From Escherichia coli (GTDB taxonomy: Bacteria; Pseudomonadota; Gammaproteobacteria; Enterobacterales; Enterobacteriaceae), in the NCBI RefSeq assembly GCF_051903065.1, contig NZ_CP178438.1: a stretch of 64,000 nucleotides of DNA. One strand, 5' to 3'. Every line of letters begins with the position of its first letter. Position 1 is the first letter of the stretch. This document shows positions 53,171-55,522 of this stretch, in pieces. The position numbers and the translations under genes were made by a program. The notes beneath the pieces are model-generated. The model was given only the letters and a program-made list of their open reading frames with translations. It had not been told where the DNA came from and made no database searches.

Positions 53171-54523
53171 ATGACTAAACACTATGATTACATCGCCATC
53201 GGCGGCGGCAGCGGCGGTATCGCCTCCATTAACCGCGCGGCTATGTACGGTCAGAAATGCGCACTGATTGAAGCCAAAGAGCTGGGCGGCACCTGCGTGA
53301 ACGTCGGCTGCGTACCGAAGAAAGTGATGTGGCACGCGGCGCAAATCCGCGAAGCGATCCATATGTACGGCCCGGATTATGGTTTCGATACCACTATCAA
53401 TAAATTCAACTGGGAAACGTTGATCGCCAGCCGTACCGCCTATATCGACCGTATTCATACCTCCTATGAAAACGTGCTCGGTAAAAATAACGTTGATGTG
53501 ATCAAGGGCTTTGCCCGCTTCGTTGATGCCAAAACGCTGGAAGTTAATGGCGAAACCATCACGGCTGATCATATTCTGATCGCTACTGGTGGCCGCCCGA
53601 GCCATCCAGACATTCCGGGCGTGGAATACGGTATTGATTCTGATGGTTTCTTCGCCCTTCCTGCTTTGCCAGAGCGCGTAGCGGTTGTTGGCGCGGGTTA
53701 CATCGCCGTTGAACTGGCGGGCGTGATTAACGGCCTCGGCGCGAAAACGCATCTGTTTGTGCGTAAACATGCGCCGCTGCGCAGCTTCGACCCGATGATC
53801 TCTGAAACGCTGGTTGAAGTGATGAACGCCGAAGGCCCGCAGTTGCACACCAACGCCATCCCGAAAGCGGTAGTGAAAAATGCCGATGGTAGCCTGACGC
53901 TGGAGCTGGAAGATGGTCGCAGTGAAACGGTGGATTGCCTGATTTGGGCGATTGGTCGCGAGCCTGCCAATGACAACATCAACCTCGAAGCCGCTGGCGT
54001 TAAAACCAACGAAAAAGGCTATATCGTCGTCGATAAATATCAAAACACCAACATTGAAGGTATTTACGCGGTGGGCGATAACACGGGTGCAGTAGAACTG
54101 ACACCGGTGGCAGTTGCAGCTGGTCGCCGCCTCTCTGAACGCCTGTTTAATAACAAGCCGGATGAGCATCTGGATTACAGCAACATTCCGACCGTGGTCT
54201 TCAGCCATCCGCCGATTGGTACTGTTGGTTTAACGGAACCGCTGGCGCGCGAGCAGTACGGCGACGATCAGGTGAAAGTGTATAAATCCTCTTTCACCGC
54301 GATGTATACCGCCGTCACCACTCACCGCCAGCCGTGCCGCATGAAGCTGGTGTGCGTTGGGCCAGAAGAGAAGATTGTCGGTATTCACGGCATTGGTTTT
54401 GGTATGGACGAAATGTTGCAGGGCTTCGCGGTGGCGCTGAAGATGGGGGCAACCAAAAAAGACTTCGACAATACCGTCGCCATTCACCCAACGGCGGCAG
54501 AAGAGTTCGTGACCATGCGTTAA
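53171..54523 (+). CDS. gor: Glutathione reductase
   Basis: FAD motif GGGSGG, redox-active disulfide [13 protein letters not shown]. Confidence 0.95.
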
Positions 54524-54529
54524 ATGTTA

Positions 54530-54560
54530 AAGGGCTAAGAGTAGTGTGCTCTTAGCCCTT
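54530..54560. terminator. Bidirectional terminator hairpin between gor and dinQ
   Basis: AAGGGCTAAGAG-TAGTGTG-CTCTTAGCCCTT 12-bp stem. Confidence 0.6.
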
Positions 54561-54576
54561 AATTACGTTTCCGCTA

Positions 54577-54660
54577 TCAGTTCAGAAGCTGAAGCAGAAA
54601 GCGGATCAGTTCCAGCAGCGCAATTAACGCCCCAAGAACGATGATTGCTTTATCAATCAC
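54577..54660 (-). CDS. dinQ: DinQ 27-aa single-TM toxic peptide (type I toxin)
   Basis: Minus-strand GTG with GGAGA Shine-Dalgarno, translating VIDKAIIVLGALIALLELIRFLLQLLN; not in the supplied ORF track (below its size cutoff). Confidence 0.8.
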   Translation of the reverse strand: MIDKAIIVLGALIALLELIRFLLQLLN

Positions 54661-54853
54661 CCGTTTTCTCCATGCGATGGAGTGAGAATGCATCCGCTTA
54701 CTCATCCACTGCCTGTCACGGTGCATGTCTCATTGTTAGATGACGACTATCTCACTCCGGCCAGAGCATCAGTTAACGGCACCACCCGTACTTCTGACCA
54801 GGACTTTGAAAGCGTTTATGCGCATTGCCAGAGTGAAAATGCCTCAGAGCTAA

Positions 54854-54869
54854 CTGGATAATCATACAG
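54854..54869. promoter_or_regulatory. LexA box (SOS operator) of dinQ
   Basis: CTGGATAATCATACAG matches CTG-N10-CAG, about 195 nt upstream of the dinQ start. Confidence 0.7.
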
Positions 54870-54933
54870 TACATGCAGGTTATAAAACCAGCACGTCCTT
54901 GCAATAGTTTCAGTATGGTATTAGCATTGATGC

Positions 54934-55016
54934 GTTAGATGATGGCTATCTCACTCCAGCCAGAGCCACCAACTCAGGGCTGGAAAGTAAAAAACCGACG
55001 CAAAGTCGGTTTTTTT
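54934..55016 (+). ncRNA. agrB: agrB-like antisense sRNA regulating dinQ
   Basis: Candidate -35 TTGCAA (54899-54904) and -10 TAGCAT (54922-54927); RNA contains a 33-nt segment (54934-54966) about 90% identical to 54735-54767 inside the dinQ 5' UTR; ends at terminator ACCGAC...GTCGGTTTTTTT. Confidence 0.55.
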
Positions 55017-55168
55017 ACGTCCTGATTCAGACCTCCTTTCAAATGAATAGCCAACTCAAAATTCACACCTATTACCTTCCTCTGCACATACACATTCGTT
55101 AAACCATATATGTTTTTGACTTATCCGCTTCGAAGAGAGACACTACCTGCAACAATCAGGAGCGCAAT

Positions 55169-55522
55169 ATGTCATTTCTGTTACCCATCCAACTGTTCAA
55201 AATTCTTGCCGATGAAACCCGTCTGGGCATCGTTTTACTGCTTAGCGAACTGGGAGAGTTATGCGTCTGCGATCTCTGCACTGCCCTCGATCAGTCGCAG
55301 CCCAAGATATCCCGCCATCTGGCATTGCTGCGTGAAAGCGGGCTATTGCTGGACCGCAAGCAAGGTAAGTGGGTTCATTACCGCTTATCGCCGCATATTC
55401 CAGCATGGGCGGCGAAAATTATTGATGAAGCCTGGCGATGTGAACAGGAAAGGGTTCAGGTGATTGTCCGCAACCTGGCTCGACAAAATTGTTCCGTAGA
55501 CAGTAAGAACATTTGCAGTTAA
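55169..55522 (+). CDS. arsR: Arsenical resistance operon repressor ArsR
   Basis: 117 aa with ELCVCDLC metal-binding motif; AGGAG Shine-Dalgarno. Confidence 0.9.
   Translation: MSFLLPIQLFKILADETRLGIVLLLSELGELCVCDLCTALDQSQPKISRHLALLRESGLLLDRKQGKWVHYRLSPHIPAWAAKIIDEAWRCEQERVQVIVRNLARQNCSVDSKNICS

What the first reader, a model, noticed from the sequence alone, without database searches (positions are those of the whole stretch)
54530..55016. dinQ type I toxin locus with apparently a single agr antisense sRNA copy
The gor-arsR spacer is 645 bp. It holds the DinQ peptide ORF (GTG start with SD), a LexA box about 195 nt upstream, a 33-nt segment inside the dinQ 5' UTR (54735-54767), and one promoter-plus-terminator sRNA unit (54934-55016) with a closely similar 33-nt core that would pair antisense to the dinQ mRNA. 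From memory (not checked) K-12 carries two such units, agrA and agrB, in a longer spacer; only one is visible here. Inference: this strain controls DinQ with a single antisense RNA, which may change the toxin/antitoxin ratio.
Basis: partly seen in the sequence, partly recalled or inferred. Interest (0 to 1): 0.5.

Follow-up and report, generated by a model that had tools for sequence, protein, structure and literature searches.

The report
dinQ toxin locus, one matched antisense RNA
This E. coli strain carries the known DNA-damage-inducible DinQ toxin gene with one antisense RNA gene instead of the two in the K-12 lab strain; this is a common natural allele, and the RNA that is kept is the one that matches this strain's own toxin mRNA.

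Summary
The gor-arsR spacer is 645 bp, against 876 bp in K-12. It holds dinQ, a LexA box, a 33-nt target repeat in the dinQ 5' UTR, and exactly one Agr sRNA gene (Rfam AgrB, 107.7 bits). K-12 has agrA and agrB 231 bp apart, and exactly 231 bp are missing here.

The arrangement is not strain-specific. About 14% of 5,426 complete E. coli genomes, and the E. albertii type strain, have a single agr.

The retained sRNA is not simply agrB. It sits behind the agrA-position promoter, carries the K-12 agrA-type antisense block, and has the agrB-type 3' flank.

The dinQ target has co-varied with it. Four of the six K-12/window differences in the 331-nt mRNA lie at nt 106-113. The predicted duplex has 29 Watson-Crick pairs, 2 G·U pairs and 1 mismatch (-57.6 kcal/mol). 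That is as good as K-12 agrB:dinQ (-58.2) and far better than the inactive K-12 agrA:dinQ pair (-42.7).

In 25 isolate-genome loci that have a dinQ target, the target always matches one agr copy on the same chromosome. In two-copy strains the matching copy is sometimes the first and sometimes the second.

Verdict: a known type I toxin-antitoxin locus in an ordinary natural allele, probably fully controlled by its single cognate antitoxin. The switching of specificity between strains is the modestly new part.

The parts
53171..54523 (+). gor (glutathione reductase) CDS, left boundary of the spacer
   Evidence: ORF list. Annotated gorA in the 100% identical record CP083585.1.
54530..54560 (.). 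Bidirectional terminator hairpin shared by gor and dinQ
   Evidence: 12-nt perfect inverted repeat and a terminator-like hit. The K-12 paper places the dinQ terminator just after the gor stop codon.
54524..54854 (-). dinQ primary transcript, 331 nt. The +1 site at 54854 is inferred from the K-12 mapping.
   Evidence: The numbering reproduces the published elements: seq1 U16-C28, seq2 G94-G106, seq3 U167-U178, SD G184-G187, and a length of about 330 nt. There are only 6 differences from K-12.
54577..54660 (-). dinQ CDS (27 aa plus stop, GTG start)
   Evidence: Translation is identical to K-12 DinQ. PGAP annotates 'damage-inducible type I toxin DinQ' in the identical record.
54668..54671 (-). 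Shine-Dalgarno GGAG (mRNA G184-G187)
   Evidence: Sequence and numbering. It is predicted closed in the +1 form and in the agr-blocked form, and partly open in the +44 form.
54735..54767 (-). Antisense target in the dinQ 5' UTR (repeat R0, mRNA nt 88-120)
   Evidence: 33-nt direct repeat with the agr 5' end. It corresponds to the published AgrB pairing region G88-A119.
54742..54749 (-). Hypervariable specificity block of the target (repeat positions 8-15, GACGACTA)
   Evidence: It holds 4 of the 6 K-12/window differences in the mRNA. Positions 8-15 are the variable run across loci.
54855..54870 (.). LexA box CTGGATAATCATACAG (minus strand CTGTATGATTATCCAG). It abuts the +1 site (54854) and overlaps the inferred dinQ -10 (TATGAT, 54861-54866).
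   Evidence: Sequence, 100% identical to K-12. dinQ is a LexA-regulon gene.
54899..54927 (+). agr promoter (-35 TTGCAA 54899-54904, 17-nt spacer, -10 TAGCAT 54922-54927)
   Evidence: 100% identical to the promoter of K-12 agrA, whose transcription start was mapped experimentally. The generic promoter scan did not flag it because it matches only 8 of 12 consensus positions.
54935..55018 (+). The single Agr antisense sRNA (antitoxin). Nt 1-32 pair with dinQ mRNA nt 119-88. The terminator hairpin is at about 54989-55015.
   Evidence: Rfam RF02891, 107.7 bits. Fold z = -5.0. Duplex of 29 WC, 2 GU and 1 mismatch, -57.6 kcal/mol.
54941..54948 (+). Specificity block of the sRNA (GATGGCTA, the K-12 agrA type)
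54949..54959 (+). Interval where the unit changes from the K-12 agrA state to the K-12 agrB state. This is the site of the 231-bp gap, or crossover, relative to K-12.
   Evidence: Alignment. The unit has the agrA state at positions 15 and below, and the agrB state (C) at position 27 and in the 3' flank.
55169..55522 (+). arsR CDS, right boundary of the spacer

Best explanation
The region is the chromosomal dinQ/agr type I toxin-antitoxin locus in a natural one-antitoxin allele.

How it most likely works:
- DNA damage removes LexA from the box over the dinQ promoter, and a 331-nt mRNA is made. This primary transcript is translationally inert.
- Processing to the +44 form opens the Shine-Dalgarno sequence, so the 27-aa membrane toxin DinQ can be made.
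- The single, constitutively transcribed Agr sRNA (54935-55018) pairs through its first ~32 nt with mRNA nt 88-119.
- That pairing sequesters 'sequence 2', which lets 'sequence 3' close the SD hairpin. As in K-12, the duplex is also a substrate for RNase III.

The sRNA kept here is the cognate one. It sits in the agrA position, behind the agrA promoter, and has an agrA-type 8-nt specificity block. The dinQ target carries the matching block, with two G·U wobbles and the same single A·C mismatch seen in K-12.

The three direct repeats (UTR target, first agr, second agr) recombine. Unequal exchange gives alleles with three repeats (K-12), two (this window) or one (ST131, where both promoters are lost). 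Gene conversion between repeats keeps the target matched to one agr copy.

Shown here: the anatomy, copy number, complementarity and population frequency. Inferred: expression, repression, and whether this single-copy state is ancestral or arose by deletion.
For: - Anatomy and copy number.
- K-12 has two annotated sRNAs, and exactly 231 bp separate the two alleles.
- The promoter region 54768-54948 is 100% identical to K-12 up to and including the agrA 5' end, and the 3' flank is identical to that of agrB.
- Duplex statistics:
  - window agr x window dinQ: 29 WC / 2 GU / 1 mismatch, -57.6 kcal/mol
  - K-12 agrB x K-12 dinQ: -58.2
  - K-12 agrA x K-12 dinQ: -42.7
  - K-12 agrB x window dinQ: -41.7
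- In K-12, AgrB binds and represses while AgrA does not.
- The dinQ mRNA differs from K-12 at only 6 of 331 nt, 4 of them at nt 106-113. DinQ and structural sequences 1, 3 and 4 are identical, and sequence 2 differs only at its last base (nt 106). Predicted SD accessibility behaves alike in both alleles: closed at +1, partly open at +44, closed when nt 88-119 are blocked.
- In 25 isolate-genome loci that have a dinQ target (16 haplotypes), each target has a same-chromosome agr with at most 2 non-pairing positions. This was reached by 0 of 20,000 permutations, and by 12 of 5,040 when one representative per target type is used.
- Single-agr alleles make up about 14% of complete genomes. E. albertii has the same target type with a single agr.
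- The EH08/O111:H8 single-agr allele equals the two-copy 2013C-3252 allele minus 231 bp, with the cognate first-copy block kept.
Against: - Nothing was measured in this strain: no expression, processing or repression data.
- The agr promoter is a weak consensus match (8 of 12), and the generic promoter and terminator scan flagged neither it nor the sRNA terminator.
- RNAduplex energies ignore the intramolecular structure of both RNAs.
- The complete-genome sample used for the matching test is small (25 loci) and phylogenetically non-independent.
- Some metagenome contigs show targets with no matching agr. Short-read collapse of the tandem repeat, or chimeras of mixed strains, could produce exactly that, so they were set aside.
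- The single-agr count is obtained by subtracting two megablast counts, so it is an upper estimate.
Confidence: 0.85

Rival explanations
1. Simple loss of agrA: the strain kept the K-12-type antitoxin agrB and deleted the dispensable paralogue agrA. Regulation would then be exactly as in a K-12 agrA mutant.
For: The 3' flank of the unit and position 27 (C) are in the K-12 agrB state. The K-12 agrA mutant has no UV or growth phenotype.
Against: The unit lies behind the agrA-position promoter, which is 100% identical to K-12 P-agrA, and its antisense block is GATGGCTA (agrA type), not AAGAACTC. K-12 agrB would pair poorly with this strain's dinQ: 5 mismatches and -41.7 kcal/mol, as poor as the inactive K-12 agrA:dinQ pair.
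Confidence: 0.05
2. Assembly artefact: a K-12-like two-copy locus was collapsed across the identical ~58-nt agr core, giving a false single chimeric unit.
For: The unit is chimeric relative to K-12. Several short-read metagenome contigs show suspicious single units next to a K-12-type target, as expected from such a collapse.
Against: - The spacer is 100% identical to a complete-genome record, and 59 records are at least 99% identical.
- Single-agr loci occur in about 768 complete genomes and in E. albertii.
- The dinQ target lies outside any collapsible repeat and carries the matching block. A collapsed K-12 allele would not have it.
Confidence: 0.03
3. A decaying or unbalanced locus: with only the weaker agrA-position promoter driving the antitoxin, DinQ is under-repressed. 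That would be the reader's altered toxin/antitoxin ratio, with more SOS-linked toxicity or persistence. Alternatively the locus is on its way to loss.
For: - The -10 of this promoter (TAGCAT) is further from consensus than that of the second-copy promoter (TAGTAT).
- Other lineages have lost function at this locus: ST131-type alleles lack both promoters, and in GF4-3 an IS/TnpB element replaces dinQ.
- In vitro, a 3-fold excess of AgrB was needed for full repression.
Against: - DinQ, the SD, the LexA box, the structural-switch sequences and the sRNA are all intact.
- In 10 of the two-copy loci examined, the first-position copy is the only cognate one, so this promoter suffices in many lineages, including O157:H7.
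- E. albertii shares the architecture, so it is stable over long times.
Confidence: 0.07

Closest known systems
E. coli K-12 dinQ-agrAB locus (Weel-Sneve 2013, PMC3567139; Kristiansen 2016, PMC5066626; Rfam RF02891)
   Same: - Same chromosomal site (gor-arsR), an identical DinQ peptide and an identical LexA box and promoter region.
- Structural-switch sequences 1, 3 and 4 are identical, and sequence 2 differs only at nt 106.
- The sRNA has the same fold and terminator.
- The antisense target sits at the same place (nt 88-119) and has the same single A·C mismatch.
   Different: - One sRNA gene instead of two, in a spacer 231 bp shorter.
- The antisense block of the sRNA is the K-12 agrA type. 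In K-12 that sRNA neither binds nor represses.
- The dinQ target block differs from K-12 at 4 positions, so that it matches this sRNA and not K-12 agrB.
Plasmid agrB-dqlB loci (IncX3 pOXA-484; PMC12317039) and the dql genes of Enterobacteriaceae (PMC5066626)
   Same: A DinQ-like toxin with a single Agr-type antitoxin and no agrA. In pOXA-484 the toxin-antitoxin function was shown experimentally. A Hafnia paralvei contig found here with two copies of the conserved core (one in a UTR-like context, one before a terminator) suggests a similar dql-type layout.
   Different: Those toxins are only about 41% identical to DinQ, are on plasmids or at other chromosomal sites, and act in plasmid stabilisation. 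The window has the true chromosomal dinQ orthologue.
zorO-orzO / zorP-orzP tandem type I loci of E. coli
   Same: The antitoxin is encoded divergently, does not overlap the toxin gene, and pairs with a long toxin 5' UTR. Copy number varies between strains and antitoxin-only loci exist (mSystems 2024). From my own recollection, not checked here: the paralogous Orz sRNAs discriminate between targets through a few nucleotides (Wen, Won and Fozo 2014).
   Different: In zor/orz each sRNA copy has its own toxin gene. Here two sRNA copies, or one, serve a single toxin gene, and the target switches between them.
Ibs/Sib multicopy type I systems
   Same: Paralogous antisense RNAs whose short variable stretches decide which toxin mRNA each one represses (from my own recollection: Han et al. 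2010, not checked here).
   Different: Sib RNAs are encoded directly opposite their own ibs genes, so complementarity is automatic. In dinQ/agr the complementary segments are separate direct repeats 199 nt apart, and they must be kept matched by conversion or selection.

Membership tests
DinQ/AgrB type I toxin-antitoxin family | Small hydrophobic single-transmembrane toxin ORF (DinQ, 27 aa, GTG start, SD upstream) | tested here: met
   The translation is identical to K-12 DinQ. The identical record is annotated DinQ by PGAP.
DinQ/AgrB type I toxin-antitoxin family | Agr-type sRNA: a match to the Rfam RF02891 covariance model, with two hairpins including a rho-independent terminator | tested here: met
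   107.7 bits against a gathering score of 40, over the full model length 1-84. Fold z = -5.0.
DinQ/AgrB type I toxin-antitoxin family | The sRNA is encoded 5' of and divergent from the toxin gene, does not overlap it, and its 5' end is complementary to the toxin 5' UTR | tested here: met
   The inferred transcription starts are about 80 bp apart (54854 on the minus strand, 54935 on the plus strand). The 33-nt repeat is 91% identical and gives 31 of 32 positions paired, counting G·U.
DinQ/AgrB type I toxin-antitoxin family | SOS control: a LexA operator over the dinQ promoter | tested here: met
   CTGTATGATTATCCAG at 54855-54870, identical to K-12. LexA binding was not assayed.
DinQ/AgrB type I toxin-antitoxin family | A translational switch in the mRNA: sequences 1-4, an inert +1 form and an active +44 form | tested here: met
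   Sequences 1, 3 and 4 are identical to K-12, and sequence 2 differs only at its last base, nt 106. Predicted SD accessibility follows the same pattern as in K-12. This is a prediction only.
DinQ/AgrB type I toxin-antitoxin family | Toxicity of DinQ and its repression by the sRNA | not testable with these tools
   Needs genetics or biochemistry. Demonstrated only for the K-12 allele.
K-12-type dinQ-agrAB architecture (two sRNA genes) | Two tandem agr units 231 bp apart, separated by a 149-nt inter-unit segment | tested here: not met
   There is one unit, and the 231 bp are absent.
Orthologue of K-12 agrB (the functional K-12 antitoxin) | Second-position promoter (TTGCAA-17 nt-TAGTAT) and the antisense block AAGAACTC | tested here: not met
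   The promoter and the block are those of the first (agrA) position. Only nt 27 and the 3' flank are in the agrB state.
Orthologue of K-12 agrA (the non-repressing paralogue) | Poor complementarity to the dinQ on the same chromosome (25 of 31 nt in K-12) | tested here: not met
   Same position and block as agrA, but here the target matches it: 1 mismatch and 2 G·U pairs over 32 nt.

The most novel reading that the evidence does not exclude
The 8-nt block at positions 8-15 of the three direct repeats (dinQ target, first agr, second agr) is a specificity determinant that switches between strains. Gene conversion among the repeats re-pairs the toxin mRNA with one or the other sRNA copy.

- In many lineages, including O157:H7 and several of the other two-copy strains sampled here, the 'agrA'-position copy is the real antitoxin and the 'agrB'-position copy is the non-cognate spare.
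- The window's target type (GACGACTA, paired with a GATGRCTA sRNA block) is shared with E. albertii and E. whittamii and may be the ancestral one.
- K-12 agrA would then be the old antitoxin, left without a target when the K-12 target switched.
- Only deletions that keep the cognate copy, or that remove the toxin promoter as well (ST131), survive.
Probability: 0.55. Interest if true: 0.55.

Novelty: new variant of a known kind. Interest (0 to 1): 0.33.

Why it matters
As stated, the finding matters little. The locus is known, and a single agr is a common allele already hinted at in T1TAdb.

What it adds is a correction to the K-12-centred picture of 'agrB is the antitoxin and agrA is an inactive paralogue'. 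That labelling is allele-specific.

- Annotation pipelines and databases that call the sRNA by position or by similarity to K-12 will mislabel the functional antitoxin in many strains.
- The locus is a compact natural case of a toxin mRNA and a trans-encoded antisense RNA being kept matched through concerted evolution of direct repeats.
- It gives a simple cross-repression experiment that could be run directly.

Tried and rejected
- **Generic promoter and terminator scan.** It found only the gor/dinQ terminator, not the agr promoter or terminator. Identity to the experimentally mapped K-12 agrA promoter, the Rfam match and the fold were used instead.
- **A degraded second toxin gene in the K-12 inter-unit segment.** Local alignment of the 149-nt agrA-agrB segment against the dinQ region scored no better than shuffles (21, against a shuffle mean of 17 and maximum of 27). 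Rejected.
- **Metagenome contigs as a population sample.** 70 loci were retrieved. Several show a K-12-type target next to a single non-matching agr, or odd combinations. Short-read collapse of the tandem repeat or chimeras of mixed strains would give exactly this, so these loci were not used for the matching test or for frequencies.
- **GTDB species scan with the 17-nt core.** Most of the 101 hits were chance matches in unrelated phyla. Only the Escherichia loci were used for the argument. The Hafnia, Citrobacter, Serratia, Pantoea and unnamed Enterobacteriaceae loci were only inspected. E. fergusonii, E. marmotae and E. ruysiae were not recovered with this pattern.
- **Counting target types with short BLAST queries.** Considered and dropped, because partial alignments would confound the identity bands.
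- **Ancestral state or deletion for this strain.** The polarity could not be decided.

Full report
**1. What is in the sequence**

gor ends at 54523 and arsR starts at 55169, so the spacer is 645 bp. On the minus strand lies the 27-codon dinQ ORF (54577-54660, GTG start). Its product, VIDKAIIVLGALIALLELIRFLLQLLN, is identical to K-12 DinQ. A GGAG Shine-Dalgarno sequence sits at 54668-54671.

A 33-nt direct repeat links 54735-54767 in the dinQ 5' UTR with 54934-54966 (91% identity, 199-nt spacing). Its 17-nt core occurs only at these two places in the 64-kb window, against 0.01 expected by chance.

Rfam finds one AgrB-family sRNA in the whole window, at 54935-55018 on the plus strand (107.7 bits against a gathering score of 40). 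There is also a sub-threshold echo (21.4 bits) over the UTR repeat. The sRNA folds into the family's two hairpins, including the terminator (z = -5.0).

**2. Comparison with K-12**

The MG1655 record annotates gor, dinQ, agrA (3648063-3648144), agrB (3648294-3648375) and arsR. Its spacer is 876 bp. The pairwise alignment with the window is almost perfect, apart from one 231-bp gap that equals the agrA-to-agrB spacing.

The alignment also shows that the single unit is a mosaic relative to K-12:
- Everything from the dinQ promoter through the first 15 nt of the sRNA (GTTAGATGATGGCTA) is identical to the agrA side.
- From position 27 onward, and in the 3' flank (ACGTCCTGATTCAGACC), it is in the agrB state.
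- The changeover lies in the 11 nt shared by both copies (54949-54959).

Position 27 = C is common in first-position copies of other strains. The unit is therefore a 'chimera' only with respect to K-12.

**3. The target has changed with the sRNA**

I used the published numbering: AgrB pairs with G88-A119, sequence 1 is U16-C28, sequence 2 is G94-G106, sequence 3 is U167-U178, and the SD is G184-G187. With it, the dinQ +1 site maps to 54854 and the transcript is 331 nt, matching the ~330 nt reported.

K-12 and the window differ at only six positions of this mRNA. Four of them lie at nt 106, 110, 111 and 113, inside the antisense target. One is at nt 133. One is a synonymous change at nt 221.

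| sRNA x dinQ target | Pairing over 32 nt | ΔG (kcal/mol) |
|---|---|---|
| window Agr x window dinQ | 29 WC, 2 G·U, 1 A·C mismatch | -57.6 |
| K-12 AgrB x K-12 dinQ | 31 WC, 1 mismatch | -58.2 |
| K-12 AgrA x K-12 dinQ | 25 WC, 4 G·U, 3 mismatches | -42.7 |
| K-12 AgrB x window dinQ | 27 WC, 5 mismatches | -41.7 |
| K-12 AgrA x window dinQ | 28 WC, 3 G·U, 1 mismatch | -54.9 |

The single mismatch in the window pair is the same A·C mismatch that the K-12 AgrB:dinQ pair has. K-12 AgrA neither binds nor represses K-12 dinQ experimentally.

The single sRNA is therefore predicted to be a fully competent, cognate antitoxin, and it is not functionally equivalent to K-12 agrB. The rest of the regulatory apparatus is intact. 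ViennaRNA predicts the same behaviour in both alleles: the SD is closed in the +1 form, partly open in the +44 form (0.18 against 0.22 unpaired), and closed again when nt 88-119 are blocked to mimic sRNA binding.

**4. How common the arrangement is**

Counts among 5,426 complete E. coli genomes:

| Query | Genomes with a match |
|---|---|
| Any part of the spacer | 5,422 |
| dinQ/agr promoter segment (54768-54933) | 4,610 |
| K-12 agrA-agrB inter-unit segment | 3,842 |

By subtraction, about 768 genomes (about 14%) have a single agr with an intact dinQ promoter. About 812 (about 15%) have lost the promoter region altogether. An evenly spaced sample of the ranking agrees: 27 of 39 chromosomal rows are two-copy, 5 of 39 are single-copy and 6 of 39 are collapsed. 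Fifty-nine records are at least 99% identical to the window's spacer, and one complete genome (ECNB21-M121) is 100% identical.

The collapsed allele, for example in ST131, results from exchange between the UTR repeat and an agr repeat. It removes the LexA box, the dinQ promoter and the agr promoter together. The locus therefore exists as an allelic series of three, two or one repeat. This is the expected outcome of unequal homologous exchange between direct repeats.

**5. Matching in other strains and species**

I read the repeats in 27 loci from isolate genomes, 25 of which have a dinQ target. These were complete E. coli genomes taken across the ranking, plus the E. albertii, E. whittamii and two divergent 'E. 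coli' loci recovered by the scan of one genome per species.

Variation in the first 42 nt of the repeats is concentrated in one run, positions 8-15. Six block types occur in the dinQ target (shown for positions 8-16): GACGACTAT, AAGAACTCT, AATGGCATT, GTGGGCATT, AATGGTATT and GTGGGCAAT. By the full 33-nt target there are seven types, because two targets share the GTGGGCATT block.

In every locus, one agr on the same chromosome pairs with the target with at most 2 non-pairing positions (ΔG -51 to -66). In two-copy loci the other copy usually has 3-6 mismatches (about -40 to -52 kcal/mol), generally in the range of the inactive K-12 AgrA pair. Shuffling targets among the 16 distinct haplotypes never reached the observed fit (0 of 20,000). 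With one representative per target type, 12 of 5,040 permutations did.

The matching copy is the second one in K-12, HL15, 2014C-3338, E-1246, FDAARGOS_1282, Z1002 and Z0117EC0005. It is the first one in 2013C-3252, MSB1_8B, two O157 strains, E69, A3176, 806883-11-2019, TUM9812, 09-00049 and CEC15.

The single-agr allele of EH08-18-36, O111:H8 and GTEN_24 is the 2013C-3252 allele minus 231 bp. It retains the cognate first-copy block and that copy's private T at position 30.

The window's target type, with a single agr, is also found in the E. albertii type strain, in the arsRB-less E. coli SCU-306, and in a divergent E. coli chosen as a species representative. E. whittamii has the same target with two near-cognate copies. 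The window's type is thus old, and possibly ancestral. Whether this strain's single-copy state is ancestral or a later deletion of a non-cognate second copy cannot be decided from these data.

**6. Mechanism**

Steps shown in K-12 and transferable by sequence identity:
- LexA-controlled transcription of dinQ.
- An inert primary transcript and an active +44 form.
- sRNA pairing at nt 88-119, which frees sequence 3 to close the SD hairpin, with RNase III cleavage of the duplex.

Inferred for this allele:
- The agrA-position promoter (TTGCAA-17 nt-TAGCAT) gives enough sRNA.
- The two G·U pairs are tolerated.

The promoter inference is supported indirectly. The same promoter drives the only cognate copy in ten of the two-copy loci examined.

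The DNA segments are direct repeats, and the two genes are transcribed in opposite directions. Any conversion of one repeat by another therefore creates perfect RNA complementarity automatically. That makes gene conversion the most economical explanation for the co-variation. It remains an inference.

**7. What is known already**

The locus, its two K-12 sRNAs and the inactivity of K-12 AgrA are published. T1TAdb states that AgrA is present only 'in some bacterial strains', and it picks the sRNA with the most stable predicted interaction. Plasmid agrB-dqlB loci have a single antitoxin. [quoted passage not shown]

I found no paper describing the copy-number series, the block switching, or the alternation of the cognate position. 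The searchable library excludes most subscription journals, so this is not proof of novelty.

**8. Verdict**

This is an ordinary natural allele of a known system. The modestly new point is that the specificity of dinQ/agr pairing differs between strains, and that the K-12 names agrA and agrB do not track function.

Scores: interest 0.33; novelty, new variant of a known kind.

Noticed in passing
window 63768-63799 (-): Rfam shuA/chuA 5' UTR thermoregulator at 60.1 bits (gathering score 58). The strain therefore carries the chu haem-uptake locus, which from my own knowledge K-12 lacks (not checked here).
   Followed up: no
window 54688-54861 (+): A 58-aa ORF that PGAP annotates as 'hypothetical protein' (WP_001362224.1) in the identical record. 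It runs antisense across the dinQ 5' UTR and reaches into the LexA box, and similar calls appear in other strains. It is probably a spurious gene call.
   Followed up: partly
L003 (E. coli ST131 2017_APHA) 2501-2971; about 812 of 5,426 genomes: Collapsed one-repeat allele. Exchange between the dinQ-UTR repeat and an agr repeat deleted the LexA box, the dinQ promoter and the agr promoter. That leaves a promoterless dinQ ORF fused to a promoterless agr remnant. arsR and arsB are also absent, so arsC follows directly.
   Followed up: partly
L194 (E. coli GF4-3) 1-1550: An InsQ/TnpB-family element occupies the place of dinQ. Only an agr unit (block GATGACTAT) remains upstream of arsR, making this an antitoxin-only allele.
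   Followed up: no
L014 (E. albertii NBRC 107761), about 60 nt downstream of its single agr: A 30-nt copy (25 of 30 identical) of the 3' end of gor, including the stop codon: GCGGCGAAAGAATTCATGACCATGCGTTAA. The dinQ-agr module is thus bracketed by gor-3' sequences, which suggests an old insertion at the end of gor. No ars genes follow there.
   Followed up: partly
46 places on E. coli plasmids (e.g. H40, query 429-463): Plasmids carry a 35-nt stretch 100% identical to the agr core (window 54952-54986). This is consistent with the published plasmid agrB-dqlB toxin-antitoxin loci.
   Followed up: no
L114-L183 (metagenome contigs), e.g. L123, L124, L132, L156, L159: Several contigs combine a K-12-type dinQ target with a single non-matching agr, or have no matching copy at all. 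The likely causes are short-read collapse of the 231-bp tandem or chimeras of mixed strains. If real, these would be dinQ loci without a cognate antitoxin.
   Followed up: partly
window 54724-54734 and the equivalent position in L004-L012: The 11 nt just upstream of the target repeat (mRNA nt 121-131) also differ by target type: TCTCATT, CCCTATT or CCCCATT. In at least two types they can pair with the variable block within the mRNA. This may be a third co-varying partner, an intramolecular hairpin. It was not analysed.
   Followed up: no
L013 (Citrobacter werkmanii) 1749-1960 on the minus strand: Two tandem Agr-like units 115 nt apart, each with its own terminator. No dinQ-type UTR repeat was found with the same pattern.
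   Followed up: no
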